This document shows positions 795-55,906 of a stretch of DNA of 64,000 nt, piece by piece (position 1 is the stretch's first letter; each line of letters begins with the position of its first letter). The notes beneath the pieces were generated by a model. It was not told where the DNA came from, made no database searches, and worked only from the letters and a program-made list of their open reading frames with translations. The stretch spans positions 2,854,001 through 2,918,000 of the forward strand of contig CM119373.1 in NCBI GenBank assembly GCA_051294905.1, read 5' to 3'. The DNA is from Botryllus schlosseri. Its lineage: Eukaryota. A program made the position numbers and the translations under genes.

Positions 795-800
795 CCTATA

Positions 801-1680: not shown

Positions 1681-2414
1681 CTGTACCTCCAGCTCCGAAT
1701 CCTACTATTTCCGCATAGATGTTTTATACACATATGCATATATAGCTACCTACCTTATTCCAAGATATACGATGATTCTCAAAAAACAACGTGCAGCATA
1801 TTCAAGTATTTGAAGTGTTGCGTCTACGGCAAGATATTGCTTAACAAAGCAGTAGTTCTAACTGTGGCATATTTGTATTACGTCTAAGTAGTAGTGTTAA
1901 CTTCCGCGTTGTGATGAATAGCGAGTGCGAATGGTTGCACTAGTGACTTAATGTAAATGACAGTCATTGATGCTGGGCAGCTGGCACAGTTTGAAACTCT
2001 GCCAATCATTCCAATGCATATGCGTAAACGTAATGTAATCCACACTATACCACATGGCCATCAATTCAGAGGCCGCCAGCGGGCATTGGTCGATATACAT
2101 TGAACGATCACGCTTCCACGAGCAAGCTGTATTTCAAATGAAATGGCAGTAGTTCTGCATTATATTTTAAACAAATTCAATGCAATCCCCAATGCAACTC
2201 ATCGGTCGTCGCTAAGCAAATTACGGTCCCTCCCACATGCAATTCAATTGAACGTTGATAATCCAGTATATAAGTTGTCTGATATGATACATGCATTTGA
2301 ATAAATTCAATGTGGCAAGTTGTGAACCAATGTGTACCAATATGATTACAGACTGACAACTATCTAACATTTATTCTCTCCCTTGACCGCGACGAGAAGG
2401 TGTAACAGTGAAGG

Positions 2415-4879: not shown

Positions 4880-5210
4880 ACACAGCATGGAGAGATGGCT
4901 ATTTATGGTTGTGCCTGAAACGTTATCTTACTATTGGTGTTTCGATTGTGATCTGTGAAAGGAGGTCCTCAACATGATAAAGTATTTACGTTCAACGATG
5001 AATGATGATCGCCTATAAGTAAACGATTGGTGTCTCAGCTGTGGATCATACCACTTCGCTATCTCGCCACACATGTGAGTACAGTGTGGTTATGGTCTAT
5101 CAAGCGTCATTACAGAGTTAGGTTGTCCAGGGTGACAGAGACTTGGCGCGCACGAAGCCGGACTACAGAAAACAATTTAACGCCAATCCATCATCATTGG
5201 GACAAATATC
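4880..5210 (+). repeat. Duplicated block Z, copy 1, starting with a decayed hAT transposase C-terminal fragment
   Basis: Matches 33240-33380 and 33845-34010. Confidence 0.75.
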
Positions 5211-5539
5211 CTTAAATTATCAAATATCATCACTACTCTTCTAGTTTATTGTAATGCACATCGATTTACTTGAAATAATACTGGACCCTGGATCTGCCAA
5301 TGCGTCAGAACTGATATTTTAGTCATCATAATCGCAAGTGTCGCGGCCAGACTAATCATATTTTTGGTTGGCCTTGCAAGTTCACAATCTGAGCAATTCA
5401 ATTTCGATAATATAACAGGATTTCGATAATATAATGGGAAATTAGCTCGCGGGCTATTCAAAACCTTCTCGCGGGCCACATATAGTCCACAGGCCGCGGG
5501 TTGCCCACCCCAGATATACACAGGCACCTTCGATAGTTT

Positions 5540-5680
5540 TCAGAGCTGGAGCCGGAGCTGGAGCCGGAGCAGTGGTAATAATGCGACTCTGAAGCTGGAG
5601 CCGGAGCTAGTGTATGATAGGAGAAAGCTCCGGAGCCAGAGCTGGAGCAATGCATATTTACGGCTGCTCCAAAGCCCTGG
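5540..5680. mobile_element. MITE end with GGAGCC/GGAGCT subterminal repeats
   Basis: Repeated gagccg/gagctg units ending in agccctg; related sequence at 46490-46650. Confidence 0.55.
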
Positions 5681-5686
5681 TTATAA

Positions 5687-7970
5687 CCAGGGCCGAAGCC
5701 GCATTTTTCAGCCCTCTCCCTCCCAAATAAACACTGATCTTGGGCCCATCGCAGGGTAATCGATGCAACTTCTGGGGCTTACTATATGTATCTGGTCGTA
5801 ATATGATTTGAATGAATTATGCCAATAATATTGGTTCTTTCATATATTACTAAATAACTTGATCCCCTCACCGCCAACGTGATCACAGTTAGTGGTAGAG
5901 CTGGTGAAGGATGATGACTTCGAAAGTGCAAGGAGCGTAAATTGTACATCGTTAAGTCCTGTTCATCTCACACCGCACATACGGTGGTTTCCAATCGTTT
6001 ATGGTCATGACGTCATTTCCAATTTGAAAATGTTCCGTAGTCCAGCTCAAAATTTGATAAGCTGATTACTAATTAAAGGTCGACACATTTGCCAAGACTT
6101 ACTCACGGCCTATTCAGCAAGCTGATTACGTCCAACATCTTCTCGAACTACAGAATAAAGTCCAACTTCCTAGTCCCATGTTCAGAACCACTATATCTTT
6201 GAATAAAGCATCCAAACGGCCTAAACCGACTCTACAAACATACCGCTATCTGGTAATTACGATAACAATTAGACTTATTTCTGTAAACGAATGTTATTTT
6301 TATTTATTTTTGATCGCAGTTTTTGCGAGGGTGGTAGTCTCCAATGTTCCCTCTAAGCTGCGCACGTGCGCAAATGCGCTGTGCTGAAACAGTCTATGCG
6401 CACAGAAAATTTAAGCTGCGCACAGAAATTAAATCTGCGCACAAAAAATCCGAAGTGATTTTATTTAGTCGTTGCGCACTGTTTTCCTAGGGACCACGCA
6501 AACTCGTGAAAAATTAGAGAGAACATTGCAAGGGGCAAATAGTGTTATCGCTGCAGTGTGAAACTGAGGTACGAGTGCGGCCCGCAAAGGTAAATATTGC
6601 GATCGATTTGCAATCACGTGCATCTCACGAAGACGATTTTTCTCTTATAGTAGGGTCTCGTACGCGTGAGCGATACTGGTATCGCTTCAATAGCGCATTG
6701 TTTTCTGGGAATTGCGAAATACCATGGTTTAACAAAGTTGGGCTAGCTCGAAGTTAATCTGCGAGAAACTAACGAATAGTCTTCTCCGCGTGTCATAAAC
6801 ATTGCGTAAGATTTACTCAGGACCGTAACTGCCGCACCCCAAACCCCCCAATTGGAGGGGCCGAGCTCGAAGGGGGCCCAAAATTATTTCGTGAATTAAC
6901 ATAAATCATGATGTATTTTTTTGGAACTTTTCAAAAAACTTCGCGCCTTGCGCGATTTAGTTTTGTCAAATATCTTGATGATTGGGTATCCGCTCCCCAA
7001 TAACAAAATGTACGGATGATTTATATAAATGGGCACTTGGGCGTCGGCTATTACCGCGCCACGGCGCACCAAGACATATGAAGTTAAAGCTATGTAACAT
7101 GCGACACCGAGAAGTGCGCCAGAACGATCAGCAGCGAGAGAACCTTGACCGAAAAGGACTTCCCTTGTGATAACCGAAAACTTCGATATATATAAATATA
7201 TATACTTAATTGTCCATAGGCGCCTAAATGGCTGGCACTGAATGTTCCTGTTCTGGCGATCTAACTCCCACAACCAGACAAATGCCATATCGAGGGAACA
7301 TTATTTGCCAGTACAGAAATACCAATTTGAAATGGTGTACGTCCTATAGTTTAGTACGTTTGGGCGACTTCAATATCTTTTTATATAGCAGATAAGAGGT
7401 CACGAAATAGCATAATGTAACGAAGTCGGTAGGCCTATACCCAATTTGATAGGAATATATATGCAATTCCCGATCATATTGACCGATTGAATCATGAATT
7501 ATAAAAAAAATTCGCGCTTCGCGCGTTTAGGCGAAAGAACCACTGAACGGACAACCCAATGTAGACGATAAGTACCGCCCAAAAGCTCAGAGCCCGATGG
7601 GGGTCTGGGGAGCGAAGCCCCTAGAAGTTCGATTTATCACCCTATGGGGGCCTGGTTGCGCACTGTTGTCGAAAGGCCTGCGCAGTGAGTTGGCGTGTTT
7701 GCGCAGACTCGTGAAAAATTCGAGGGAACATTGGTAGTTTCCATATCAAAACCAAAATATGGGATACCAAATCGCGCATAGCGCTAAGAAAAATTTCATG
7801 TAGCATAAATATGCCCAAAATTATTATCAGTTAGGAAAAAAATATAAATTAACTTCAAAATTCCGGACATTTAGGCATATTTTAGAAATTCCTCCCGGAC
7901 GCAGGCTTTAACAGTGAAATTTCGGACATGTCCGGGAAATTCCGGACGTATGACAAGTGGCAACCCTACT
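5687..7970 (+). repeat. Duplicated block W, copy 1 (interrupted by MITE 6342-7733)
   Basis: 5687-6341 plus 7734-7970 align contiguously to 41437-42350. Confidence 0.85.
6342..7733. mobile_element. Non-autonomous hAT-type element
   Basis: TIR caatgttccctc...gagggaacattg; 8-bp TSD gtagtctc/gtagtttc; empty site in the paralogous block at about 42116. Confidence 0.85.
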
Positions 7971-8530
7971 CTTATCAAGAGCAACCGGCACGATATAGGA
8001 TGCAGAACAGAGACGGATTCAAAACCAAATGGCGAATGGTGACGCAATAATGGAAATTTGTAAATAACATGAATGGAAATTCGATCATAGCAACAATGCA
8101 GCGTGTTGCAATGCTGATTAGAATTTGAATTACTGAATTCGCAAAAACTGAATGAATACAGCAGAAATCAGTTCATATCAAGTCACAGTGCGTTCCCATA
8201 ACCATAAAAATGGTTAATGTCTGTACAGTGTACACCCAAGCTTGGCTCGGTTTTTACTATGCCAGGGGTCACCGCAATCGCCGCCGGCGATTTGATTGGA
8301 AATTTGGGAAATCCGCGAAATCAAGTATTTTGAGATGCTAAAAATTATTTCAGTTTCAAACTATTGTTGCTGTTTCAAAATAAGGTATTCCCCCGTGACT
8401 AACAACATTATTCAACACTAGCTGAAACGGTTTCGGCGATGGCAACAGCATTCCATCGATGGGGAGTCTTCTGATATCAATTCAGCAAGTAAAATCAAGT
8501 TGTTGAATTGATTGCATAGGGTAGGAACTA

Positions 8531-9514
8531 TAGGAATGATGTGAACTAGAGGTTCACGTTCGAGTTCTCTGTGCGTGAACCTCAGAAATTTAGAGGTTCG
8601 CGTCCACATACGGACCGTGGTAGGTTCTGAACTGTGAACCTGTTTCATATATTACAAATTTCACTTCATTAAAACATCTTTGGTTGAAATTTATTGTATT
8701 TCAACTGCGGGTCACTCTATACATGACGCTGGCAGCGTAAAACATTCAACACTTAACGAGCATCCAACTTAACAGTCTCAAAAATTTTACTTGCTTTGTT
8801 ACAAAAGTCTGCTTGAAATATCCAGCTTTCCGTTTATGAATATTTTGTGATTCGTTTCTGTTGTGAGCTTAAACACAATCACACAACATCAAGAGCGAAA
8901 TACACTACATGTAGGTAGTCAGAGAATGAGTGCGAATGAGTGGTATTCAGCCATTAAATGAAATTGATATCGTTGTTTGATGTAAAAAAATCTAGTAAGC
9001 GTACGTGGTCAATCTTAACGTCATATGTTTATAGTATCATTAAAAACCACATTCGTGCGACTGGGGTGTTTACTAATTCTGTAGGCTACTTCTTTCAATG
9101 GGGTAATATCGCTACCAAGCATAGAAACCCGATTTGCACTCAGCTCAATATCAACGTAGCAATTATCAGACGCCGAATACATTGTCCGGTCTGGCCTAGA
9201 CTGTTAATGCGTAAGCTTATTTTTCCTCGCAAGTCGTCGTCAAAATTGTTGGCAAACGACGGAAGATAGGGATTATTGTGTCATTTGATTGCCCAAGTTG
9301 ATACATTTGGCGACGTTTTAAAATATCAATACGTACGTCAGCATTGTGGCAATATGTGGTCCGAGTCGTCGCGAGGCATCGTGGAGGTCTACAATAATAT
9401 AGGTTATCAGTTCACTGAAATGTAGGGCTGGAACTAGCAATATGACATCACGTGACGTCTTGAGGTTCGCGTTCGCGTTCACACAGAACCTTTTCGAGAT
9501 TCACACCATCCGTA
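8531..9514. mobile_element. Non-autonomous hAT-type element (TAGG...GTGAAC family)
   Basis: TIR taggaatgatgtgaac...ttcacaccatccgta, flanked by direct repeat gtaggaac(ta); same family as 18064-19723. Confidence 0.8.
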
Positions 9515-10109
9515 GTAGGAACTAGAAACTTTAGCTTTGATTTGAAACAGTTTAGCTTGTATTGCGGTTAGCTTGAGTGCGCATGTGTAAGGCTTGGATT
9601 AGCTTTGGTCACCTGTTTTGAGCCACACACTATCATGACAATCGGTATTTTGAATTTCTGTTCTGAATCTGACACTTCCTGTTCAGACTAATGCAATTTT
9701 TAACGCGAACTAGATGCGTGATAGATATCCTGGCTGTATTGATTGTTATTGCATGCCTGCCACCTGAGTCTGCATACCTGACCATCATTTCCCGAATCCG
9801 TAATTTTCCCGGGGGAACCTGTTTCAGTATCCTCTTCTAGAAACATTTAGATATGTTGTACAGTTCACCTGCACTATCAATTCGACCGAATACTTTATTG
9901 GTTTGCAAATACGGACTCAGCATATAAAAGTCATCTTATAAACTATGAAAAATAAACTTTGTTTAAGTCCGACATCTATAATGTCACGGTAATGAAGAAA
10001 AAACTTACCTATATCAACATTTAAATATTCAATAAACACTCACAAAATATACCAGAAAAAGATCAATGTCATGTACAACTAAAATTGTGTTCGTTCACTA
10101 TACGTTAAG

Positions 10110-10955
10110 ATATTGTAGAAACAGCATATTCAGCCACTCATTTATACGTATTGTTCACCGTAGATATAGAAATTGCTGTAAATAAATTATTATAGATGAT
10201 ACACAACGTATAACCATTCACCAATACTTGTGTATGTGTCAGCATATAATATCAATGTCTTGATACCAGCACCACAGAGTGCTCATTGTGACTCCCAAAT
10301 ACCACGTTATAGCGATAATTAGAGATGTGTATTGTGTATATATTATTGCTATACGTTGCTATGTTTACCTGGTTATCTTGACGCCTAATTAGTTGTTTGC
10401 AATATTTTGCTTAAATTAGATTCGGTGTTTCATCGGTGTCTAGTCTACAAAACTTATAGTTGAAGAGAAAACAATCCTGCTATTGATATCATTACATAAA
10501 ATATATGAGTTCTCATATCGCATGTTAAAAGCCCTATACTTAACACTAGAAATTATTATCAGTTTCTCCGGCTGCAAGGTTTTCATTGGCTACACAATTC
10601 TGGGTTAATTGCGTTGGCGGAAAGCTCCTGCCAGCATGTGCAGTTATAGTAATTATAATATTTAAATTACCTAATTCAATTATAGAAATTACCAGAATGG
10701 AGTGATTGGATTATAGTGGAGAACTATCGAAGTATTTCCATCACAAGAAGTCATCGGAACCACATCTCCGTACTCAGCACACATTTTAGCGTATAATTTT
10801 GCCTCCTCGCCACCAATGTGATGAATAATAACGACCTATATAATTTTGAGTCGAGTTTCTGCTTATGAATTTTGCATGGTAGAGAAGCCATATTCCGAAC
10901 AGATGATTGAATCTCTATACGTGAGACGATTAGCGTCTGTCATATTGAGACGTAC
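10110..10955 (+). repeat. Duplicated block V, copy 1 (downstream flank of locus A)
   Basis: Aligns to 36050-37003 plus 38179-38315. Confidence 0.8.
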
Positions 10956-10977
10956 GCTGTACTCGCTGTTCATGGTT

Positions 10978-11185
10978 TCATGGAGCCCAACACAACACCC
11001 CGTCTGCCGTTGGAGTTTGCGATGTCTCTATCCATTTACATTCTTTTGTTCTCCATACCTGACTATCCGTCCCATCATCATCGGTCTCTCGTTCAATATA
11101 CATCTTTCTCCCGGTATTTGTTTCATGTCTCTGAAAAGAGATTGTATTGCCAATCAATTCTATATTTGGCGTGTCATCGTTGTAC
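10978..11185 (-). CDS. Candidate terminal exon, possibly the C-terminal half of the C-type lectin-like domain
   Basis: tacAG acceptor, then open frame YNDDTPNIELIGN...QVWRTKECKWIETSQTPTADGVLCWAP*; the ending resembles a lectin last strand (GVLC). The acceptor is phase 2 while the upstream lectin exon ends in phase 0, so the link is unresolved. Confidence 0.35.
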
Positions 11186-11193
11186 CTGTAACT

Positions 11194-12010
11194 ACACACA
11201 GTGTAGCCCAGACGTCTCAAACACGCGGCCCGCGAGAACATTTTGTGCGGCACGCGACGGTATTTTCGAATTTCAAGTATTCGACAATGCATTCGTGTGT
11301 CATATATCTCTTTAGGTATGAGAACGTAATGTTCACCGTGAAACTACTATAAAATTCACCGAAATCTCAACAAACTTCACATCTGTGAGCAGCGATCCGT
11401 TCAGATTTACTAATTCCACTTTCGGATCAGTGCCAGGACATACAATGCGGACAGCATCATAACCAAGTTATCTTCAAACACGCTTCCACAACGAATCTAC
11501 CTAAGGCACGCGGGAATCGTTTTTTTATAAGCACATCACAGAAATAATTGAAACTGGATTGGCCAATCTGAAATCACACTAGTGATCCGAATTACGACAC
11601 ACAGTGTAGCCCAGAGGTCTCAAACACGCTGCCCGCGAGAACATTTTGTGCAGCCCGCGACGGCAATTTCGAATTTCAAGTATTCGACAATGCATTCGTG
11701 TGTCATATATCTCTTTAGGTATGAGAACGTAATGTTCACCGTGAAACTACTATAAAATTCACTGAAATCTCAACAAACTTCACTATCACATCACTTTCAA
11801 AAGCTACCGTGAGGTAGAAGATCAGTTCTTACGTCACATTTCTAGTTCATGAAGATAAAACATGACCCGGTGATGATTCGTGATTGTTTTTTTTTCGTGT
11901 CAAGCGTGAGTAGTACGATAGTGAATTACATTTTCACGATGTTTGTGGAATGCCCGCGTGCAACTGCAAGGTCCCGTCAAATAATGCCTACTTGGAATAG
12001 GCAGCGTAAT
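11194..12010. mobile_element. Truncated copy of the CAGAGGTCTCAAAC MITE with its left end tandemly duplicated (period 403 bp)
   Basis: acacacagtgtagcc plus MITE start occurs at 11194 and again at 11597; internal sequence matches 15027-16403. Confidence 0.75.
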
Positions 12011-13428
12011 CGTGGCATATTACTGAACAGGCTTCAAAGTAAACGAATTTCCTGTTCATTTTATACAGTGTATGGTTTTCGTCATTCAAAAAGTAAGTTT
12101 TATGTTTTGAATTCGAAGAAACCTTTCGCGGGCCGCGCCGAATAGCTTCGCGGGCCGCATTTGGCCCGCGGGCCGCACTTTGCCCAGTTCTGTACTAGAC
12201 TATCATGGAATTATGCCTAGAGACCGATACGATCTGTGGAGAGGTAGTTCTCAACCGCCAGTCCGAGGCAAGTGCCCTCTCAGCCCACCAGATGTATTAG
12301 AATTTTATATCTCAATGCAAGAAGTTGGACGCTTGATCAATAATTTTTAGAGATATGAAACATCGTCAAATGTTAAATTATTTAGAAGTGTGAAACGTGC
12401 CTTTTGGTATATTGTCGCAATGGAGGATTTATGGTCTCCTCTGGGCGTGCTTTACAATAGTGCAAGTGTTACAAAATAGCCTACAATTCGTTTTGGACGA
12501 ACATATTATATAAATACTGCAGAGACATTTAAATAAACTTAATTCCGCATTTCCGCAATATATTAGACGTTAAGGCAAATAGCAAAGTCGCAATTCTTTC
12601 AAAGGATGCCGAATATTCACGATCAGTTTAGTGCAGTGCTCTTCAACATTCTTCGTCGTGGTGCACCCTTCTAAGGTTTACTCAAAACTCGTATCCCCTG
12701 ACCACATAATACAGCGATTCCATAGTAAGCCTAATCCTGGGGTGTTCAACCTATTTTGTTATTCACGGCAGCATTTCGATTACATGTGTAGCATATGCGG
12801 CCGCATGCAAGACCGTAACTGCCTCATTGGAAACCCACTAATTGGGGGTGGGCGAGCTCGAAGGATGTCCAATATTATTTCTGGAATTAAAATAATTCAT
12901 AAATTATTTTAATTTATGCAACTTTTGCAAAATTATTTTCACGCTCCGCCCGATTTAATATTGTCAAATATCTTGATTATTGGGTAGGCCTACCTTCTCC
13001 CAACAAACTTTACGTTTGATTTGTAGAAATGGGCATTTCGGCGTCGGCCACTACCGCGCCACGACGCACCAAGACATATAAAGATATAGGCCATGTAACA
13101 TGCGACTCCGAGAAGTGTGCCAGACCGATCAGCAGCGAGAAGCCCTTGGACGAAAATGACTGCCCTTATGCTGGCCGAGAACTTCGATATATATATATAC
13201 ATATATGTTTAATTGTTTAATTTTAGGTGATTGATTGATCGTCATTTCGACAACGTCATTTGCTCAACAGTTCATTGTAACGCATTCTGAAAGGTGCATT
13301 GCATGGATAGGATGAATAAACTGATACAATTAGTTTAATGTTCTTCGGAATAATTCCTTCGACACAAATGAATCAGTTCGGCTTTACCACGACCATTATT
13401 GGAGCAGTTTCAAATTATCTGAACTCAC

Positions 13429-13655
13429 CGATGCGGTCCATATTTCAATATCTAACGATGGCGAATACCAAGTCATGTCGTCCAAAAGCGAACACATGCG
13501 ATCTTTATCAACATTGTTGGGATTTGAAGTCGAAGTCGAAATTATAACTACTTCCGAGTTATTTTTTTCGCAAATTTCCCTCGCTTTTGTGAAATCAAGC
13601 GGTGTCCGCATTTTAATCCAGTAGCATTCTTCGGCTTCATAGATATCGCAAACTC
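13429..13655 (-). CDS. Locus A C-type lectin-like domain exon (N-terminal half)
   Basis: tttAG acceptor phase 1, GTGAGT donor phase 0; GVCDIYEAEECYWIKMRTPLDFTKAREICEKNNSEVVII...IEIWTAS has the CY..F..A..C and W-motif pattern of CTLDs. Confidence 0.75.
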
Positions 13656-13961
13656 CTAAATTTGTGTATATAAATAACAGAATTAGTAGAACAGCATAAC
13701 TTGAAAATGCTCAGGTACAATTTGAAAGTCCTCGAGATACACATCGTTTCGTTACATTTATTTATGGCTTCGCAATACAGAATGTGAATGCACTTCATAC
13801 ACTATATCCACTATATATTAGCTACGATTCAAGTCTTTTAGTGAATCCGAGCAGAATAGCCAATGTTATAATACACAATGTCACAATAATTACAGCGACT
13901 TCGACAATTCATAAATTAACTTTTCAAGAGGCAGTAGAAAAAGCAACAGCGACATTCTCAC

Positions 13962-14087
13962 CGCCGCAATCCCTCCCATAATATCCTTCACTGCATTTGC
14001 ACGAGTAATACGGCTGGATGTAATTGCTCATGTTCGAGCATGTTCCTCCATTTTTACAAGGATTCGGGTGGTGTTGACAGTATTTGA
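13962..14087 (-). CDS. Locus A EGF-like exon E11
   Basis: 126 nt, AG/GTGAGA, phase 1-1; KYCQHHPNPCKNGGTCSNMSNYIQPYYSCKCSEGYYGRDCG. Confidence 0.9.
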
Positions 14088-14170
14088 CTGTATGGAAACG
14101 AAGCGAAAAATATGCCTGAATATTTATTTTCGTTAACATAGTAAAAGAATCAACAGAGATATATACTTAC

Positions 14171-14290
14171 GGCCACAGTTCGTCCCATAATATCCGTCGT
14201 TGCAATCGCAGGTATGGTACGGTGAAGTTTCGATATTCACGCATGTCCCTCCATGTTGACAGGTATTCAGGTGGTGTTCACAGTATTGGT
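14171..14290 (-). CDS. Locus A EGF-like exon E10
   Basis: 120 nt, AG/GTAAGT, phase 1-1; QYCEHHLNTCQHGGTCVNIETSPYHTCDCNDGYYGTNCG (absent from ORF track). Confidence 0.9.
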
Positions 14291-14392
14291 CTGTATGGAA
14301 ACTGTGTTAAGCCTACTCAAGTTATACACGGGCACATGTTGTGGCAATGACCTAGTCATTTCGTCGACATAGCTCAGGAATTAGAAGCGATA

Positions 14393-14478
14393 TAGGTATT
14401 TCGATAATATCAGTCGATGCAACTGCACGTATAGTAAGGATGAGTGCCATTACTAAGACATGTTCCGTTCTGTGGACA
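14393..14478 (-). pseudogene. Locus A dead EGF exon remnant E9
   Basis: CPQNGTCLSNGTHPYYTCSCID*YY: in-frame TGA, donor deleted, 5' part replaced by repeat DNA. Confidence 0.85.
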
Positions 14479-14716
14479 CTAGGACTGTTCAAAAATATCC
14501 TTTTTTCCTTAATCTTGCGGGCTACGTGATTAAATTGTTAGGTTGCCTTAAAAAACGACGCACACCAAATTTGAATTCATTCCAACCAATATTCGCGGTT
14601 TACGTAGAGTTTGAAAATTTTGAATTTGCGCAGAAACGCAAAAAAATTTTTTTTCAATTTTTTCTGCCAACCCCGTGAAATTGTTGGGCTGTCTTCAAAA
14701 ACTATTCAAAACAAAT

Positions 14717-14860
14717 TTTACTCAATTCCAAGCCGTAGAAGTGGAGTTATATCAGTTTTTCTTTGATAATTCTGGGATTATCCTTGATCGGTGGATAAGC
14801 CAACAATTTTCATCGAAAAACTGGAATAACTCCGCTTCTACGGCTTGGAATTGAGTAAAA
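14717..14860. repeat. Inverted repeat, ~34-bp arms
   Basis: ttttactcaattccaagccgtagaagtggagttat ... ataactccgcttctacggcttggaattgagtaaaa; probably internal to a DNA-transposon derivative. Confidence 0.8.
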
Positions 14861-15026
14861 TGCAATGGTTCGGAAACTGAGCGTGTTTAATCAATCCCTG
14901 AACATGTGCCTTGGACCCACCGGATAAAGACACAAAAATTGTTTGAGCAAAAGTTTTGAATGTTCATTGCGGTTTTTTACAGACATGGAGATTTATCGAT
15001 ATGTTCAAGAGACGGAAGCCCTAGAA

Positions 15027-16403
15027 CAGAGGTCTCAAACACGCGGCCCGCGGGCCGCATGCGGCCCTCGAGAGCATTTTGTGCGGCCCGCGACGGTATT
15101 TTGGAATTTCAAGTATTCAACAATAAATTCAAGTGTCATATATCTTTTTTAGATATAATAACGTAAAGTTCACGATAAAACTACTGTAATAATCACAGGA
15201 AGCTCAACAAACTTAACTACCACATCACTTTTAAAAGCTACCATGCGGTAGAAGATCAGCTATACGTCACATTTCTATTTCATGATGACAAAACATGACC
15301 CGTTGATGATTCGTGATTGGAAATTGTGATTTGGTTTGGTGCGACCTTCTCGTAAAATGACTTGATCTCGGATTGACTGGTTGCTTGCGTTGCGCAGGGT
15401 AGCTATCTAATCAGGTCAGCATGGCAACCATTGGTATTCTTTGATCCCGTGACGTATAGTTGGTTGCATGCTGGGTAATGTTTGTTCTCTTTATCCATAT
15501 TATTATTATCGGTGACGAGTAAGATAGTAGTACGCTCTACAGCTGTAACACCTATGAATTCCTCACGGGTTGGACATTTCTGTTCCAGGTAGGCCCACTC
15601 TTAACCAGGGTCCGTAAACCCCATCGGGGTACGAAGCACCACATCAAAGTGTACGAGATGTATTGTGGAATTAGGCCTATGTGCTGTGGGATATTTTCTC
15701 GGCCAATTTATTCAACTAGAAAATAGTCTTCGCGCTACACGCGATTTTGTGTGACTGGGATTTCGGATTTTAATACAGGTACAATCAGAAATTGTGTTGA
15801 AAACTGACAGGGACTACGAGAAATCTTATTGGAAGCACAAAGGGTACGGTCGCTAAAAAGGTTAAGAAGCAATGTGGGCTCAATAATGATTATATTTAAG
15901 TTGTTATTGATACGTTCCAATAATAATCGAAGGTAAAATCTAACGCCGATTTAATTTGACTTTGGTAATGACAGTAACAAGCCTATAGCCTACTTATATC
16001 GACAATCTCAACACCAGGATTAGGCTACACCGCTCAAATGCTCTGATATCAATATTCTACATAACTTGTGGCACGTCAAAGGTCCATTAGCCGCAATATT
16101 ATAACCTCACAATATTATAACTCGCATGATGTCTATAACTCATTAATTAAAACAATTATGCTCGACACGAAAACAATGTTATTCAAATATTTGATAATTG
16201 AACTTTTTTCCGTGTCAAGCGTGAACAGTACAATAGTAAATTACATTTCCACAATATGTGTGGAATGCCTGTCCGCAAGGTCCCGTCAAATAAGGCCTAC
16301 ATGGAAATTATACATTGAATATCCCTATTACTGATGCTGCGGCCCGCGGCGTCATCAAAACTAGGAAAGTGGCCCGCGATCACATTTGAGTTTGAGACCT
16401 CTG
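15027..16403. mobile_element. Non-autonomous hAT (Charlie-like) element
   Basis: TIR cagaggtctcaaac...gtttgagacctctg; perfect 8-bp TSD ccctagaa; gcggcccgcgggccgc subterminal palindrome. Confidence 0.92.
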
Positions 16404-16608
16404 CCCTAGAACGAAGTCTTGAATGTCAAAGAGCGTTGCTTTTCACAATTGATGGATTGGGTTCCTGAGAGTACATCTGCCTTGACCGACTAGCCTGTGC
16501 ATGGCTTGCCAAGGCAATCTGAAATGTTGTAAGAGGTTGCTGATTTCCATTCATCCCCAAATAATTTTAAGGGCCATATCGCAGGAATCAACAGCGATAC
16601 ATACACAC

Positions 16609-16734
16609 GATCGCCATTCGTCCCGGGATATCCTATGACGCATGTGCACTTGTAGTGCGAGTGGGTGTAATCGTACGTGTTCACGCATGTTCCTCTATTT
16701 TTACAAGTATTCTGGTGGTGTTGACAGTATGCTT
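16609..16734 (-). CDS. Locus A EGF-like exon E8 (6th Cys replaced by Gly, weak GTGTGT donor)
   Basis: 126 nt, phase 1-1; AYCQHHQNTCKNRGTCVNTYDYTHSHYKCTCVIGYPGTNGD. Confidence 0.7.
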
Positions 16735-16854
16735 CTGTGTGGAAACCAAGCTATAACTGGGTCAAACCAACTCAAGTTAGAGGCTGACAAATATTGCGGC
16801 AGTGGGCGAATCTTTTCCTCGACATAGCTCAAGAATTAGAAAAGATATACTTAC

Positions 16855-16974
16855 GTTCGCAGTTACTTCCATAATATCCATAGATGCAGTTACACTCATA
16901 GTACGGATGAGTGTAAGTAAACTTACATTTTTCATTATGATGACAGGTATTTGGGTGGCGTTCGCATTAATTTA
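16855..16974 (-). pseudogene. Locus A EGF exon E7 with premature stop but intact splice sites
   Basis: 120 nt, AG/GTAAGT; N*CERHPNTCHHNEKCKFTYTHPYYECNCIYGYYGSNCE, TAA at the conserved Tyr codon. Confidence 0.8.
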
Positions 16975-17094
16975 CTGTATGGAACAAAGTGATTTGTCAA
17001 ACTTACTGAATCTATACACAGCCAAGTATTATGGAATTGAGCGTGTCTCATTCTGGTCATAGCTCAATATTCACAAGAATTATGGGCTACTTAC

Positions 17095-17214
17095 CACTGC
17101 AGTTAATTCCATAATATCCGTCAATGCAATCGCACGTATAGTACGGACGATTGTCATTATTCAGGCACTTCCCTTCATGTTGGCATGTATTCTGGTGGTA
17201 TGCACAATATCTCT
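17095..17214 (-). CDS. Locus A EGF-like exon E6
   Basis: 120 nt, phase 1-1; RYCAYHQNTCQHEGKCLNNDNRPYYTCDCIDGYYGINCS. Confidence 0.9.
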
Positions 17215-17333
17215 CTGTGTGGAAACGAAGCGAATATGGGCCAGACATACTAACTTTAGACACGGCCAAGTGTCGTGGCAGTGAGTGAGTCTTTTTCTGA
17301 CCATGGCTCAAGAATTAGGATCGTTTTACTTAC

Positions 17334-17453
17334 CACTGCAGTTTTTCCCGTAATATCCGCTGGTGCAATTACACGTATAATACGGACGAGTGACATTATT
17401 CAAACATTTACCTCCATGTTGACAGGGATTCTCGTGGTGTGCACAATATTGTT
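17334..17453 (-). CDS. Locus A EGF-like exon E5
   Basis: 120 nt, phase 1-1; QYCAHHENPCQHGGKCLNNVTRPYYTCNCTSGYYGKNCS. Confidence 0.9.
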
Positions 17454-17579
17454 CTGAACGTATGAACAAAGCGATAACTGGGTCATACGTACTGAATTTA
17501 TAAACGGCAGGTAGAGTGACATGGCATTGAGCGAGTCTTATTATGGCCATAGCTATAATTAGAAACGTGTTACACTTAC

Positions 17580-17699
17580 CAGTGCAGTTTTTTCCATAAT
17601 ATCCGTCGGTGCAATTGCACGTATAGTACGGACAGGTGACATTATTCAGACATTGTCCTCCATGTTTACAGGGATTCTGGTGGTGTGCACAATATTGTT
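17580..17699 (-). CDS. Locus A EGF-like exon E4 (extra 7th Cys)
   Basis: 120 nt, phase 1-1; QYCAHHQNPCKHGGQCLNNVTCPYYTCNCTDGYYGKNCT (absent from ORF track). Confidence 0.9.
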
Positions 17700-17818
17700 C
17701 TGTGTGGAAACGAAGCGATTACTGTGCCATAAATACTGAATTTAGGCACGGCCAAGTGTAAGGCAGTGAGCGAGTCTCATTCTGGTCATATTTTAAGAAT
17801 TAGGATCGATTTACTTAC

Positions 17819-17938
17819 CACTGCAGTTTTTTCCATAATATCCGTCAGTGCAATTGCACGTGAAGTACGGACGAGTGACATTATTCAAACATTTTCCTTC
17901 GTGTTGGCAGGGATTCTGGTGGTGTTCACAATATCTCT
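17819..17938 (-). CDS. Locus A EGF-like exon E3
   Basis: 120 nt, phase 1-1; RYCEHHQNPCQHEGKCLNNVTRPYFTCNCTDGYYGKNCS. Confidence 0.9.
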
Positions 17939-18063
17939 CTGTATGCAAACGACGCGTATACGTACTGAATTTGGACACGGTCAAGTGTCGTGGCAATAAC
18001 CAAGTCTTATTCTGGCCATAGCTTAAGAATTAGAAGCATTATACTTAACAGTGGAGTGTTTTA

Positions 18064-19723
18064 TAGGGATGTTGTGAACGTGAGGCTCACATTCGCGTTC
18101 TGTATGTGAACCTCAGAATTTTAGAGGTTCACGTTCAGAAACGAATCTCGGTAGGTTCTGCACTGTGAACCTTTTTCATACATTACAATTTTCACTTCAT
18201 TTTAACATCTTTGGTTGATATTTATTGCATTTCAACTGCGGGCCACTCTATGCATGGCGCTGACAGTAAAAAATAAACACTAAACGAGCATGCACCGTGA
18301 CAATCTCAAAATATTGGCTTGCTTTGTTACAAGTAGGGTTGCATTTAAAACAAACGGTTGTTTAAAACACTTAGTTTAAAACATGTTTTAAACATTGTTT
18401 TAAACAAATGCCATTTAGAAAAAAACAAAATTGTGTTTTTTTTGCAAAAGTTTTATAATTATATCGTAATTCGTAACCTGTCTTGATATTTTCGAAAATC
18501 ATATTGCATGAACCCTCGGACGATTTGCACACGAAATCGTCGACGCATACAATATGGTAGGAATGGAACCCTCGACATCGGCACCGCTTAAGCAATTAGG
18601 CCTGTAACATGCAGGCCATATATCACTTGAACCGATTGGATGTTTTGATGATGATGGCCCTACTCCATAAAAATTCCGCATGATGAGGTAGACCGATAGA
18701 TATGGGCCGAAAAAGCCGAGGAAGTACCCAACGAAACTGACGATGATGATACATACCCTACGACTCTTCTGAGTCGTGTAAATGGTATATTCAGTCGACT
18801 TGAAGGGCGGGACGATTTCATAGCTCCGTCCATGATGCAGGATGACTTATTTATGAACAATATTGACGATGATGTCGTAAAAGTAAAGCAGTTGTTGCTC
18901 TATGCTGCTCACTGTGCCGTGGAAGACACTCAGTGATTTTTTTTCAATAAAATATTCGTTGAATACAAGAATTTTCTTCGAGCATTCCATGCCGTGCAGT
19001 CGCAGTAATCACTGCATCGTAATTTTAGAAGATATTCGTCATCATTAGGATATCATGGGTAGAAAAAAACAAAAAAAAACAATAAAAAACATGTTTTAAA
19101 CAAGGGCCATGTTTTAAACATGTGTGTTTTAAATTGATTTTTGTTTTAAACACAACCCTAGTTACAAGAGTTTGCTCAAAATATCCAGCTTTCCGTATGT
19201 GAATATTTAGTGACTCTCTGCTTTGAGCTTGAACCGCAATCACACAACATCACGAGCGAAATACACTACTGGTAAACGTAGTCAGCGAATAATGCTATTC
19301 AAGCAATCAATGAAATTGATATCGTTGACTGATGAAACAAATCTAACAGGCGTACGAGGCCAATATCAACATGGCAATACTCCGACGCCGAATACATTAT
19401 CCGGTCTGGCCTAGACCGTTAAAACGTAAGCTTATATTCCGCTTGCAAGTCCTCGTCGAAATTGTTTGCAAAGTGACGAAAGATATTGATTTAATGGGAT
19501 TGTTATATCATTTGATTGCCCCAGTTGATACATTCGGCTACGTTCAAAACGTCAATATGTATTTCAGCATTGTGGTATTATGTTACCCGAGCCGTCGCTA
19601 GGTGTCATGACCAATTTTACATTAATATACGCTATGACTTCACTGAAATGTAGGGTTGGAATCAGCAATATGACGTTCGAGTTCACACGAACCTGAGCCT
19701 TTCAGAGGTTCACACCGTCCCTA
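18064..19723. mobile_element. hAT-type non-autonomous element inserted in EGF exon E2
   Basis: TIR tagggatgttgtgaac...gttcacaccgtcccta; TSD gtgtttta/gtgttttc; same family as 8531-9514. Confidence 0.88.
18334..19160. mobile_element. Nested hAT-type MITE
   Basis: TIR tagggttg...caacccta; perfect TSD gttacaag; absent from the sister copy (site at about 8798). Confidence 0.9.
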
Positions 19724-19961
19724 GTGTTTTCGATATTATCCATCGGTGCAATTGAACGTATAGGAGCCTACGGACGACTGACATTATTCAGACATTGTCC
19801 TCCATGTTGACAGGGATTCTGGTGTTGTGCACAATGTTGTTCTCAACGGAAACAAAGCGAAAACTGGGCCATGCGTACTGAATTCATACACGACAGGGTG
19901 TCGTGGCCATGAGCGAGTCATATCCCGGCCATAGCTTAAGAAACAGAAGCGGTATACTTGC

Positions 19962-20081
19962 CACTGCAGTTCTTTCCATAATATCCGTCGGTGCAATTGC
20001 ACGTATAGTACGGTTTAGTGTCATTATTCAGACATGTTCCGATATGTTGACAGGGATTAGGGTGATAATTGCAGTAACCGC
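19962..20081 (-). CDS. Locus A EGF-like exon E1 (GC donor)
   Basis: 120 nt, acAG acceptor, GCAAGT donor, phase 1-1; GYCNYHPNPCQHIGTCLNNDTKPYYTCNCTDGYYGKNCS. Confidence 0.85.
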
Positions 20082-21235
20082 CTGTATTGAAACGCAGCGA
20101 GATCATGTTAAAGTTCCTGGTGTGAGGCAGCGACTTTGTTGGATTCCGACTACATCATTTCGCATCAACAATGATAAACGTAACAAGAACAATCACCGGA
20201 AATCCTACGGATTCACTGGCTCACTTTCATGTATACTTGAATAGTACTGTTACTTTCTATTTTTCAAAAATGTGCCTTAAATAATATACAGCGATTCAGA
20301 AAGTGCCTATTTTGAATGCTGTATACGCCTTGCGGGATGGGTTTATGATTTAGCTTATAGTCTGATGCTAAGCTCTTGTGAGCCACGACCAGACACTACA
20401 ATATGTATATGCTAACTATTCACATGAATATTTCTGAGAAGTTTATTCAATAGCAATAAAATATTTCGCGCCTCGTGCGATGTTCTTATTGCTGTTGGCG
20501 ATTGGCAATTATAGAGCGGTATCTAATTTATTAATAATCCATATCATCTCTGCCAATCATGATATTATGGTTTTTGCAAATAGTCGAAATCATATGCTTA
20601 CTCCGCGTTTGCTCTTGGCCCGCCATATTTTTAACGATGACAATACGTCACGACTGCATTGCAACGTGGTAAAAACTAGTGACGTCACAAGGTCACAGTC
20701 AAATTTCGACGGATATGTCCCATAGTTACACCCTTGTATATAACTCATACAGAATACGCACTATGTTTCTGTTTGGATTGAACACTGTCTGTTGCTAATA
20801 ATTGCGACGGTGCATCGTATTTTGGTGGGGTTGATGATTAGAATTTATCATATTAAAAACAAAAATTACAATTCCCTGTTTTGTGGTGGAATTTATATCA
20901 TCCAATATATAATTAGATCATATACTTCATTCCCAATTATCTGTCTCAATCTACTATTCCCAATTTACATGAGCCCGCATTTACTGGATATCCTACTCTG
21001 TCGCATTGCACATTACATATGGCCCTGGTAAAACATGTTTCCTGTTATATTGGTTCTTATCTATTGTATGATTGAATTCTAACACTTTGCTGTTAAACGT
21101 GGAGTTAAATTCATTCACGAGCGTCAGCATTACACCACACCGACGTCATGCATTCTATATTTCAAATGCAGACCATAACATTTACCGACGCTCGTTCATA
21201 ATCAAATTCATCGTAAAAGCTTGAGAAAGACTTAA
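20082..21235 (+). repeat. Upstream flank of EGF array A, paralogous to 55907-55992 plus 56871-57712
   Basis: Long shared stretches, e.g. gaatagtactgttactt, agacactacaatatgtatatg, ttctatatttcaaatgcagac. Confidence 0.88.
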
Positions 21236-22101
21236 CTCAGTTAAATATGTAGTTAGACCGACGTTTTATCGTCGTAGGGGTAAAGTATAAATCAAGCTGA
21301 ACTGCTTTACTTTTGAGTTGAATTGGAAACGGAGTTTACGGTGATCGACCTATCGATTTATATAGATTGTTAGTTGCTTGACGATTACTTTATCCAACTT
21401 ATCGCAATATCACCTTGTAGAGTAGGTTCAACTCGTTCTCTTTCAGCCAGCTTTTCCAGGTCACTCATAATCGTTTCAAGAGATGTTCCGTCCTTAAAAA
21501 CATACAACCTTATTTACCTTTCTCGTGAAATCCACCTTATGTCATGAGTCACATACATGAAGGCCTGAACAATATTTATGACATGGAATATGAAGAAAAT
21601 GACGAATGTTTTCATTCTTATTTGCTTCTTAGCAGGTGGGTTTACTGATTGCTCGTGTACCGTTATGTTGAATTCGTGACTTGTCTGTTGGCTGTTGATT
21701 GCGTATCGCACAACACTTCTAGCTGCTTTGTTGGTATCCACCTAATTTCATTTGAATCCGACATATTCAACTGGCTTACCTCACAATTTCCATGAGAGAT
21801 CCATCGTCCATTGATGTAATTTCTACTGCAAAATTGGCCTGCAATAAACGGAAATATTCGGTTCAGCGATCGTGTTTTTCAATCGACGGTATGACGTGAG
21901 GCTCGGTATGTGACGTCTAGGCTATCAAAGGAGTAGGGCTATAACATTATTGGGACCCTTTCTGGATTGTTTTGCCAAGTTACATCCTTGCAAATTTAAC
22001 TTACAAACCACATATATAACCAACCAAGAGTGGATTATAACGTCGCAGCTTTGTCAAATATCTAACGACATATTGTACGAAAACTATATCGACTTGACTT
22101 G

Positions 22102-35900: not shown

Positions 35901-36049
35901 TCAATATGAATATACTATTCAATTGTATACTGAAGTTCTGTACCTCCAAGAAGCTCTTCGTATATATACCAATATTCAAATTCACAAATATATCAGGAAT
36001 AACTCAGTAGCGCATAGAACTACAATTGTGCTCGTTTACTACATGTTAA

Positions 36050-38995: not shown

Positions 38996-39679
38996 CGGTA
39001 GTGGTGTAGATGGAAAATTATTAGCAAGAGATAAAAAGCTTTACACCGTGATAAATGAACTACAGAAATCCATTGAACAGCTCTAATGTCACTATTGTCT
39101 ATCGCCCGACAATATTCGTAATATACCAGCGAGATGGGATTACTTTTTGATTAATTGCTCTCGTAAAGTTGTTTCGACAACGTCCTATTTCTTCAACTGT
39201 TCATAGTAACGAGCGTAAACTGTATAGCTTTGAATCGGATGAATATACTGGTAAAATCGGTTTACAGTTATTAGGATTAATTGCTTTGAGACGGCAACGG
39301 CCACGAACGCGAGGGCTCGTCGGTCAAAAGCAAGTACGCCCGATCAACAACGCTCTTATAGAGAGTTGTAGTCGTAATTTTGGCTACTTCTGAATTATTT
39401 CTTTTGCAAATACGTATCGCTTCTTCGTAATACATGAATGTCTTTGAAATTTCCATCCAGTAGCATCCTTCCGTTGCATTGATATGGCATTGTTCTAAAT
39501 TTGCAGAAATAAATTACAGAACCAATTTAGTAGTATAAATTGAAAATGTACAGGTACATTTGACAGTAGATGTATGTGGAGTAGTGGTTCTCAATCCGGG
39601 CTCGATCGAGCCCCAAGCTTTCACTAAGTTACTTTCGGGAGTTTGGCGAACTAGTGGTAGCCTACGTGATGCATAAAAA

Positions 39680-54071: not shown

Positions 54072-54191
54072 CAGAGCAGTTTTTACCATAATATCCATCG
54101 GTGCAATTGCACGAATAGTACGGATGAGTGACATTACTAAGACATGTTCCGTTATGTTGACAGACATTCGGATGGTGGTCGCAGTAATTTT
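54072..54191 (-). CDS. Locus B EGF-like exon B5
   Basis: 120 nt, AG/GTAAGT, phase 1-1; NYCDHHPNVCQHNGTCLSNVTHPYYSCNCTDGYYGKNCS. Confidence 0.88.
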
Positions 54192-54307
54192 CTAGATGGA
54201 AATTATGCGATGTGTCAAACCTACTGAATTTATACACAGCCAACTGTTGCGGCAGTGAGCGAATCGTATTCTGGCCATAGCACAGGAATTAGAAACGATA
54301 TACTTAC

Positions 54308-54331
54308 CACTGCGGTTTTATCCATAATATC
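54308..54331 (-). pseudogene. Locus B EGF exon remnant B4 (3' end only)
   Basis: TAT TAT GGA TAA AAC CGC AGT G|GTAAGT followed by the family intron. Confidence 0.7.
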
Positions 54332-54848
54332 TGTTTACGATTGTCAAATCATTGTTTTCCCTTATTTTCGTTGCGCAATTTAATCGTTGTAGCAATGTAA
54401 TTATTAGTCATATTCTTTATCGCGTCGTTTCACGTGGGGTATATAAAGCTTCTATCGTAACATATTAAGTTGGATATTTTTGATGACGCTTAATTAAATA
54501 TTCCATCTCAGATGACCATTTCAATGATATGAGTCCTAAAGTTTTAGCTAGCATGAAGCGAAATAAGCTCATGCTTTTCCAATTTGAAAAATAAAATAAA
54601 AATTAGGTTGTTACTCATTTTACAAATCCAGAGGCTTCGCGGACCCCCTGAAATTGCTTCACGGACCACCAGCGGTCCCGGGACCCCCGGTTGAGAACCA
54701 CTGCATTAGGGTGATGTTTACAGTAATTTTCGGTACGTAAATGAAATGATACGTCAAAACTACTGAATTTAGAAACATCCAGGTGTTATGGCAGCAATCG
54801 AGTCTTTTCCTGGGCATAGCTCAAAAATTATAGAAGTGATATACTCAC

Positions 54849-54968
54849 GGCTGCAGTTTTTTCCATAATATCCGTCGGTGCAATTACACGTATGGTACGG
54901 ATGAGTGTTATTATTCCGACACGTTCCGTTATGTAGACAGGTATTCGGGTGGTGTTCACTGTAATTTT
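54849..54968 (-). CDS. Locus B EGF-like exon B3 (1st Cys replaced by Ser)
   Basis: 120 nt, AG/GTGAGT; NYSEHHPNTCLHNGTCRNNNTHPYHTCNCTDGYYGKNCS. Confidence 0.8.
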
Positions 54969-55561
54969 CTATATAGAATCCAAGCGATGCGTCAAACCTA
55001 CTGAATTTAGCCACGAGCAAGCGTATTGACAGTGAGTGAATGCTTTCGCGGGCGCGGCTCAGTAATTAGAATCATCGCTGGGAAAATGATTCGGGTACTG
55101 AAAGCTGGAAAAGGATTATTAATTCTAATAGTCGAGTCAAGTAGTGCGGGATGACTTTTTCCATGTACTGGTATATATACCCTGTTACCACTAAAAGTAA
55201 TTTCATCAACGAGAATTATAGTTTCCATACTATTTCCCACTTTGGAAGCCTTGAAACCGCGATTGCTCGTATCGCAGGGTAAGATCGAAACATGAAGTGC
55301 CAAGCTGCGCAGAGTGCGCACCCTAAGAGGAAATGTCATATCTATGAAGTCGCGATCAACCCACAGCAACATCCCAAAGTGCAATGAAATGGGGATGATT
55401 GTAGAAATCTCATTGTATTCTTTGTGGTCACAAAAAGTTACATATTTAAACTTTCCACATCGTTCATACTGTTTTGACGTGCTAATGAGGGATACTGAAA
55501 TGCTAGACTCGACTCGAGGCAAATTACTCGAATCAGATTCGTCCCTATTCGTTTCCGCAAG

Positions 55562-55664
55562 ATCCATCGGTGTGATTACACGTATGGTACGGTTAAGTGT
55601 TATTATTCAGACATGTTCCGTTATGCTGAGAAGCATTCATTCGTGAGGTGTTCACAATATTTCT
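55562..55664 (-). pseudogene. Locus B dead EGF exon B2
   Basis: 4-bp duplication (GAAT), TAA stop, Cys losses; 3' end replaced by unrelated ~490-bp sequence. Confidence 0.82.
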
Positions 55665-55786
55665 CTGCATGGAAAAGAAGCGATAACTGGGTCGAACCTA
55701 CTCACGTTATAGACACAACCAAGTACCATGGTAATGAGCTAGTCTTCTTCTGCACATAGCTCAATAATTAGAAGCGATATACTTAC

Positions 55787-55906
55787 GGCTGCAGTTTCTT
55801 CCATAATATCCGTCGGTGCAATTGCACGTATAGAGCGGTTTCGTGTCATTATTCAGACATATTCCGTTATGCTGACAGGGATTCGGGTGATTATTGCAAT
55901 AGTCAT
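55787..55906 (-). CDS. Locus B EGF-like exon B1 (paralog of E1)
   Basis: 120 nt, AG/GTAAGT; DYCNNHPNPCQHNGICLNNDTKPLYTCNCTDGYYGRNCS. Confidence 0.9.

What the first reader, a model, noticed from the sequence alone, without database searches (positions are those of the whole stretch)
13962..20081. Tandem ~240-bp exon+intron cassette array of phase-1 EGF modules undergoing birth-and-death
Seen: eleven modules, intact ones 120 or 126 nt and all phase 1-1, separated mostly by 119-126-nt introns that are homologous to each other. Three are dead (E2, E7, E9) and two have altered Cys patterns (E4, E8). Because each module is frame-neutral, any subset can be skipped, gained or lost. Inference: stalk length may vary by alternative splicing and by copy number between haplotypes.
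Basis: partly seen in the sequence, partly recalled or inferred. Interest (0 to 1): 0.7.

Follow-up and report, generated by a model that had tools for sequence, protein, structure and literature searches.

The report
Partly decayed EGF exon repeat array
A probable sea-squirt gene grew a string of eleven small EGF protein modules by copying exon-plus-intron units and has since lost several; this is a real but familiar way for secreted proteins to evolve, and there is no evidence yet that the modules are skipped in RNA or vary in number between individuals.

Summary
Confirmed: eleven minus-strand EGF modules, 120/126-nt phase 1-1 exons, homologous introns (mean 70% identity, shuffled 35%). Births (E2-E6 clade, 99/98) and deaths (E2, E7, E9) are real. 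Corrections: E7 keeps both splice sites but carries an in-frame TAA, so it is a poison exon, not a neutral relic; no membrane anchor was found and the array runs into a C-type-lectin-like exon related to secreted Styela clava proteins, so 'stalk' is unsupported. New: modules before E7 are under purifying selection (omega 0.24), those after it are not (omega 1.0; difference p=0.003, split chosen after looking), yet E10 and E11 keep all six cysteines. Two RNA subsamples gave zero depth on eight bins of exon-bearing or 5' sequence (no positive control). Alternative splicing and copy-number variation are unshown; 120-nt introns argue against free skipping. Best reading: a lineage-specific secreted EGF(n)-lectin gene shaped by module turnover, this allele probably recently disabled. 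The scan noted the neighbouring paralogous array before (same window), not this array on other DNA.

The parts
21518..21615 (-). Candidate first coding exon with signal-peptide-like hydrophobic start (inferred)
   Evidence: ATG, hydrophobic run, GT donor; no counterpart found in paralog B; no RNA support
21186..21219 (-). Candidate small exon 2 (uncertain; weak AAG acceptor, shifted 1 nt against paralog B)
20969..21041 (-). Candidate Cys-containing exon 3, phase 0-1 (uncertain; differs from B by two compensating indels)
19962..20081 (-). E1, intact EGF exon, 120 nt, GC donor; sister of B1
18049..19841 (-). E2, dead: 5-nt insertion, stop, two Cys lost, donor TT, split by a transposon
18064..19723 (.). 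1660-bp element with terminal inverted repeats and 8-bp target duplication (7 of 8 match) inside E2; hAT-like by recalled hallmark
18334..19160 (.). 827-bp element nested in the former, perfect 8-bp target duplication
17819..17938 (-). E3, intact EGF exon
17580..17699 (-). E4, open EGF exon with a seventh Cys
17334..17453 (-). E5, intact EGF exon
17095..17214 (-). E6, intact EGF exon
16855..16974 (-). E7, in-frame TAA but both splice sites and six Cys kept; most diverged module
16609..16734 (-). E8, 126 nt, last Cys lost, weak donor; sister of E11
15027..16403 (.). 1377-bp element with terminal inverted repeats and perfect 8-bp target duplication, between E8 and E9
14394..14478 (-). E9, dead: 5' part missing, stop, donor deleted
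14171..14290 (-). E10, intact EGF exon
13962..14087 (-). E11, intact EGF exon, 126 nt
13429..13655 (-). Open phase 1-0 exon encoding the first half of a C-type-lectin-like domain, in frame after E11
10978..11130 (-). Candidate last exon ending in a stop (weak: resembles the lectin C-terminal motif by eye only, not statistically)
54072..55906 (-). Paralogous array B: five modules, B1 and B5 intact, B3 lacks first Cys, B2 and B4 broken by insertions
39280..39495 (-). Lectin-like exon of paralog B, broken (deletions, stop, donor lost)

Best explanation
The array is the middle of a lineage-specific, probably secreted ascidian gene (signal peptide, EGF x n, C-type-lectin-like domain) that has a decayed tandem paralog 35 kb away. 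Shown: a 240-bp exon+intron unit was duplicated head to tail; because the exon is phase 1-1 each copy kept the frame; some copies arose only in this gene (E2-E6); E2 and E9 died long ago through transposon insertion and loss of splice sites and now lie in introns, while neighbours stayed under selection. Inferred: duplication was by unequal crossing-over or slippage between units; turnover is an evolutionary (DNA-level) process, not regulated splicing; the six 120-nt introns are spliced constitutively, so E7 is probably included and its stop disables this allele, most likely recently, since E10, E11 and the lectin exon are still open. The product would have been an extracellular carbohydrate- or protein-binding molecule with a glycosylated EGF spacer.
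For: Unit homology and phases. Tree: E2-E6 99/98, E8+E11 96-97, E1+B1 96/96. Omega for E1, E3-E6: 0.31 (95% 0.16-0.51, counting method) and 0.24 (codon model, p=4e-5 against 1; 0.35, p=0.006 without Cys columns). Lesions cluster in E2 and E9. Conceptual model: stop at codon 271 with E7, open 518 codons without it. Lectin exon: profile of the A and B exons finds Styela clava multi-lectin proteins at E 3.8e-15 and 7.5e-7 among 1.84 billion proteins. Zero RNA depth in 8 bins covering E4-E8, E10-E11, part of the lectin exon and the 5' region in 2 of 2 raw RNA runs. Recent date of the lesion: E10, E11 and the lectin exon would all stay intact with P 0.24 at 2%, 0.055 at 4% and 0.006 at 7.5% neutral divergence. 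Paralog B is broken in its lectin exon and two modules.
Against: The RNA test is weak: 6% and 13% of two runs, tissue unknown, no positive control, and a tissue-restricted gene would be missed (HrVC120 is gonad-only, PMC9265791 passages). E7 carries 15-18 private substitutions, mostly amino-acid changing, which could mean it has been skipped and free for a long time in a living gene. The 5' exons and the last exon are inferred only; the second half of the lectin domain has no statistical support. The private-substitution test gave p=0.01 with one set of rows and p=0.30 with another, so it is not reliable. The state of the E7 stop in other individuals could not be read.
Confidence: 0.5

Rival explanations
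1. The gene is alive and E7 (perhaps also E8) is always or mostly skipped; variable inclusion of modules gives isoforms of different length.
For: Skipping E7 restores an open 518-codon model. E7 has 2 synonymous and 13-16 non-synonymous private changes against 1-3 non-synonymous in E1, E3-E6, as if long released. E10 would keep frame, six Cys and splice sites with P 0.005 if its whole branch were neutral. The two listed variants of another sample that fall in an EGF exon are both synonymous (2 of 40 rows shown, 938 not shown). Precedent: EGF exon skipping in EGF-TM7 receptors (PMC4419612) and aggrecan G3 (PMC8956744), passages read.
Against: No read on the exon bins in two RNA subsamples. E7's splice sites match those of intact modules. 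Flanking introns are 120 nt, a setting in which skipping is reported to be rarer (PMC2767349, passages). E7 kept six Cys and both splice sites, which 16-20 neutral substitutions would allow with P 0.03-0.06, favouring a late stop in a previously translated exon.
Confidence: 0.25
2. The E7 stop is the new end of a shortened protein (signal peptide plus five glycosylated EGF modules); everything downstream is being abandoned.
For: Selection changes at the stop: omega 0.24 before, 1.0 after (p=0.003; highest contrast of three split points tried); lectin exon A against B omega 1.0 over 42 codons; E8 lost a Cys, E9 is dead.
Against: E10 and E11 kept six Cys, frame and splice sites over long branches (P 0.005 and 0.09 under neutrality). 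No AATAAA/ATTAAA in 16300-16970; a stop followed by introns would be expected to trigger nonsense-mediated decay (recalled). The split was chosen after seeing the data, rests on 3 downstream modules and coincides with two clades.
Confidence: 0.13
3. The whole array is old pseudogene debris amplified neutrally.
For: Three of eleven modules dead, heavy transposon load, paralog B broken, no RNA reads on exon bins.
Against: Omega 0.24 for five modules; exons E3-E6 differ without indels in 6 of 6 pairs while their introns differ by indels in 6 of 6; lesions are clustered, not spread.
Confidence: 0.1

Closest known systems
Ascidian vitelline-coat EGF-repeat proteins HrVC120/HrVC70, HaVC80, CiVC57 (PMC9265791, passages read)
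   Same: Ascidian signal peptide plus tandem EGF repeats; repeat number changed by duplication of one module (12 against 13 between two Halocynthia species).
   Different: They end in a ZP domain; none was found here. Here the array precedes a lectin-like exon and holds dead modules.
Styela clava secreted multi-C-type-lectin proteins LOC144430564 (XP_077974709.1) and LOC120332703 (XP_039255940)
   Same: Closest relatives of the exon after the array; one annotated isoform lacks a whole lectin repeat.
   Different: Four or five lectin repeats and no EGF module; only the first half of the domain is matched here.
Lectican G3 region (aggrecan: EGF1, EGF2, C-type lectin, sushi; PMC8956744, passages read)
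   Same: EGF modules directly before a C-type lectin domain; EGF exons alternatively spliced there.
   Different: Two EGF modules, a sushi repeat and (recalled) link domains; not a tandem array of homologous exon+intron units; splicing is unshown here.
EGF-TM7 receptors CD97/EMR2 (PMC4419612, passages read)
   Different: Seven-pass membrane receptors with calcium-dependent EGF domains; no membrane part here and EGF_CA stays below cut-off.
Generic EGF-repeat proteins (fibropellin-like, Notch, mussel PVFP-5)
   Same: Best database and PDB matches of the module profile, 35-54% identity.
   Different: No close relative of these His/Tyr-rich modules was found; the similarity is at the level of the fold family.

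Membership tests
EGF-like domain (PF00008/PF07974) | Six-Cys pattern and profile match | tested here: met
   6 of 6 array-A references match; six Cys in E1, E3, E5, E6, E7, E10, E11; seven in E4, five in E8
Tandem exon duplication of class 1-1 modules (term recalled) | One module per exon, phase 1 at both ends | tested here: met
   9 of 9 spliceable exons are 120 or 126 nt, phase 1-1
Tandem exon duplication of class 1-1 modules (term recalled) | Flanking introns duplicated with the exon | tested here: met
   Mean 70% against 35% shuffled
Birth-and-death evolution | Lineage-specific births | tested here: met
   E2-E6 clade 99/98 in the intron+exon tree; 82/88 in the exon tree; E3-E6 85/95 in the third tree
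Birth-and-death evolution | Dead copies beside copies under purifying selection | tested here: met
   holds for E1, E3-E6, not shown for E8, E10, E11
Birth-and-death evolution | Module number differs between haplotypes today | tested here: inconclusive
   One other sample laid as contigs: two versions over E8, no depth at 13548-13928; holes and summed depth are not proof
Alternatively spliced EGF cassette arrays (EGF-TM7, aggrecan G3) | Transcripts with different module subsets | tested here: inconclusive
   No RNA read on exon bins in 2 of 2 raw runs, so no junction could be seen
EGF-TM7 receptors | Seven-transmembrane region after the EGF repeats | tested here: not met
   4 hydrophobic stretches on the coding strand against 6 on the opposite strand in 1-13400; no Pfam match in 117 of 117 downstream frames at E 0.01; sequence beyond the window not seen
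HrVC120/HaVC80/CiVC57 vitelline-coat proteins | C-terminal ZP domain | tested here: not met
   None in 117 downstream frames of 33 aa or more; short ZP exons could be missed
Lecticans | EGF then C-type lectin then sushi | tested here: not met
   EGF then lectin-like exon present; no sushi match
Botryllus fester/FcoR receptors | Ig-like and sushi ectodomain with transmembrane helices (PMC12582321, passages) | tested here: not met
   Modules are EGF; no Ig, sushi or membrane part found
C-type lectin-like domain (PF00059) | Profile match of the N-terminal half | tested here: met
   No direct Pfam hit, but indirect: Styela hits carry Lectin_C; profile of their repeats finds both exons first among 3436 frames, E 1e-9 and 5e-5; Atlas lead 0.93 to a cluster with Lectin_C in 11% of members
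C-type lectin-like domain (PF00059) | C-terminal half with closing Cys | tested here: inconclusive
   Candidate exon 11130-10978 does not beat 175 other acceptors or shuffles

The most novel reading that the evidence does not exclude
The array is a two-zone recognition protein: a conserved, heavily N-glycosylated proximal spacer (three sequons in each of E1, E3-E5; omega 0.24) and a fast-evolving distal end (E7, E8, E10, E11 with zero or one sequon, cysteine scaffold mostly kept, omega about 1, plus a lectin exon with omega 1.0 against its paralog) that differs strongly or is absent between individuals, with the E7 stop as a segregating switch between a long lectin-tipped form and a short or null form. 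It would be an undescribed polymorphic self/non-self, gamete or immune recognition family of an ascidian.
Probability: 0.15. Interest if true: 0.65.

Novelty: new member of a known kind. Interest (0 to 1): 0.3.

Why it matters
As shown, it is a clear small example of module turnover inside a gene, with introns still alignable, transposon-caused deaths and an apparently undescribed EGF(n)-lectin layout; the mechanism itself is well known, including in ascidians. It would matter more if the distal modules and lectin proved hypervariable between individuals and expressed in gametes, blood cells or contact tissue, because it would add a candidate recognition family.

Tried and rejected
No genome is held for this window, so other paralogs could not be counted. 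Run search with 16560-18060: 8 of 24 listed runs hold part of it, in 5 studies; no RNA holder listed (no evidence on expression). X7 (RNA only by guess) has pieces running through exon and intron, so it was not counted as expression. Summed contig depth in X5 was not used as copy number. X15 has a few partly fitting reads in bin 21168-21548; not resolved. Protein searches with the lectin exon and with the E4-E5 frame found nothing; the module profile found only generic EGF proteins, 17 of 70 candidates. Metagenome scans: exact motif 0 matches; profile 80 loci at 38-55% identity, none pursued. Atlas search of the candidate last exon was uninformative. A second lectin half, sought with half-profiles in all frames and in five downstream regions, was not found; resemblances seen by eye near 10960-10790 were rejected. 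Three other hits (P0003-P0005) are unrelated repeat proteins and were dropped. Private-substitution test rejected as unstable: 10 synonymous/16 non-synonymous, p=0.01 (rows E8, E11 left out) against 3/8, p=0.30 (rows E2, E9 left out). One search failed to fix omega and was redone. Fester/FcoR membership rejected. Literature: 8 searches showed no listing that describes this gene family; subscription journals are largely outside the library and no supplements were read. Earlier-findings look-ups by protein, DNA and words found no look-alike.
Full report
Observation. The stretch lies on the minus strand. Tandem Repeats Finder gives a 239-bp period at 17088-18062 (4.1 copies, 77% matches). A nucleotide profile of the unit finds eleven modules from 20094 to 13934 and a second array at 55918-54045. 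Pfam EGF or EGF_2 matched 6 of 6 array-A references scanned. Six of ten spacers are 119-126 nt; the rest are 110, about 103, 83 and about 2100 nt. Twelve introns are 70% identical on average (56-84%), shuffled ones 35% (maximum 51%). E2, E7 and E9 are broken, E4 has seven Cys and E8 five.

E2 and E9 have lost their donors and are silent intronic relics; E2 is split by a 1660-bp element with an 8-bp target duplication, with an 827-bp element nested in it, and a 1377-bp element lies between E8 and E9 (the hAT label is recalled from the 8-bp hallmark). E7 is different: canonical CAG acceptor, GTAAGT donor, six Cys, but TAA in frame. A conceptual model stops at codon 271 with E7 and is open for 518 codons without it. 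E1 has a GC donor and E8 a weak one.

Gene context. E11 joins in frame to an open exon at 13655-13429. Pfam does not match it directly, but a profile of this exon and its paralog finds, among 1.84 billion proteins, two Styela clava proteins at E 3.8e-15 and 7.5e-7 that consist of four or five C-type lectin repeats and no EGF module; a profile of those repeats finds the two exons first among 3436 frames of the window. The organism is therefore probably an ascidian (inference; earlier scan notes say the same; species not determined). The second half of the lectin domain is unresolved: the candidate exon 11130-10978 is not better than controls. No Pfam domain was found in 117 downstream frames and hydrophobic stretches are no more common on the coding strand (4) than on the other (6), so a membrane-anchored stalk is unsupported within the window. 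Upstream, three candidate exons give a signal-peptide-like start in frame with E1; they are inferred only. A paralog B shares the upstream region (20154-21246 with 56871-57729), five EGF modules, a broken lectin exon at 39495-39280 and downstream sequence.

Births. In the intron+exon tree E2-E6 form a clade (99/98) and E8+E11 another (96/95); in the exon tree E1+B1 group (96/96) (rows without the needed flank were left out: 5 of 15 in the second tree, 3 of 15 in the third). So E2-E6 arose in this gene, at about the depth of the A/B split (dS 0.31-0.33 for the closest pairs, 0.335 for E1/B1). The one closer pair at synonymous sites is E8/E11 (dS 0.16). No two units are near-identical, whereas two contigs of another sample differ from the window by 10 of 366 and 24 of 367 letters. 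Ongoing unequal crossing-over is therefore not visible.

Selection. E1, E3-E6: omega 0.31 (0.16-0.51) by counting, 0.24 by codon model (p=4e-5), 0.35 without Cys columns (p=0.006). Disabling lesions cluster in few modules (P 0.0004-0.004 by sum of squares; the count of untouched modules gives 0.004-0.06). E8, E10, E11: omega 1.0 (range 0.6-2.0), different from the upstream set at p=0.003; the lectin exon against B gives 1.0 over 42 codons; B modules give 0.47 (p=0.057). The split at E7 was chosen after seeing the data, rests on three modules and coincides with two clades. Plain decay does not fit the distal set well: E10 and E11 would keep frame, six Cys and splice sites with P 0.005 and 0.09 if their branches were neutral (these two were picked because they are intact). 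Proximal modules E1, E3-E5 carry three N-glycosylation sequons each, E6-E11 zero or one. A private-substitution test was unstable (p=0.01, p=0.30) and is not relied on.

RNA and other individuals. Two raw RNA runs (X11, 1934 million letters, about 6% of the run; X15, 1497 million, about 13%) gave zero depth in the bins 13548-14309, 16596-17738 and 20025-21167, while transposon parts drew reads of which 95-97% run on into other sequence. There was no positive control and the tissue is unknown, so this is weak. X7 pieces cross exon and intron and look like DNA. X5, another sample, has two versions over E8 and pieces over the E4-E5 intron, E1 and the 5' region, low depth over E10-E11 and none at 13548-13928; the tool warns that holes prove nothing. 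Two of the 40 variant rows shown (938 not shown) fall in an EGF exon and both are synonymous. Only 15 of 455 joints were shown, all in transposon parts.

Mechanism. Shown: duplication of exon+intron units, frame symmetry, gene-specific births, deaths by insertion and splice-site loss, past purifying selection. Inferred: a secreted EGF(n)-lectin protein; constitutive splicing across 120-nt introns (exons between short introns are reported to be skipped less, PMC2767349, passages, not ascidian data); E7 included and this allele recently disabled (0.5). Rivals: living gene that skips E7 (0.25), shortened five-EGF product (0.13), old neutral debris (0.1).

Comparison. It works like other class 1-1 module arrays (term recalled). 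Ascidian precedent for gain of one EGF module: HaVC80 against HrVC70 (PMC9265791, passages). Precedent for EGF exon skipping: EGF-TM7 (PMC4419612, passages) and aggrecan G3 (PMC8956744, passages). It is not a member of these families or of fester/FcoR (PMC12582321, passages): their defining ZP, membrane, sushi or Ig parts were not found. Other papers were seen only as search listings; no supplements were read. No close protein relative of the modules was found and eight paper searches showed no listing for this family.

Verdict. Real feature, new member of a known kind. The birth-and-death part is supported as history; alternative splicing, stalk function and copy-number variation are unshown. 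Interest 0.3.

Noticed in passing
window 49452-51515, minus strand: A fibrinogen C-terminal domain gene with its own signal-peptide-like start lies between array B and B's lectin exon, on the same strand (Pfam E 1e-17); covered by an earlier scan note.
   Followed up: partly
window 50478-51185: 352-bp tandem duplication, 99.7% identical, inside the fibrinogen-domain gene: very recent duplication or assembly artefact.
   Followed up: no
window 19723 and about 55547: Dead modules E2 and B2, each second in its array, are interrupted at the same module position by insertions that begin with the same six letters but continue differently: shared old insertion or a preferred target.
   Followed up: partly
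window 14394-14410 and 19724-19740: E2 and E9 share a Gly-to-Arg change next to where E2 is interrupted and E9 has a short deletion removing the donor; possibly an excision footprint or coincidence.
   Followed up: no
window 10024-10966 with 35971-38320: Downstream sequence shared by paralogs A and B (75-82% in the best blocks), with indels in all frames; could be UTR or decayed coding sequence.
   Followed up: partly
window 39677-40135, plus strand: Reverse-transcriptase zinc-binding fragment (PF13966, E 3e-6), a retroelement relic.
   Followed up: no
window 56316-56570, minus strand: Weak hAT dimerisation-domain match (E 0.011) in an insertion just upstream of B1.
   Followed up: no
window 51929-52850 and 58510-59421: Inverted pair of about 930-bp repeats, 85% identical, flanking array B and its upstream region.
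   Followed up: no
Styela clava LOC144430564 isoform X5 (P0009): Annotated isoform has three lectin repeats where the others have four.
   Followed up: no
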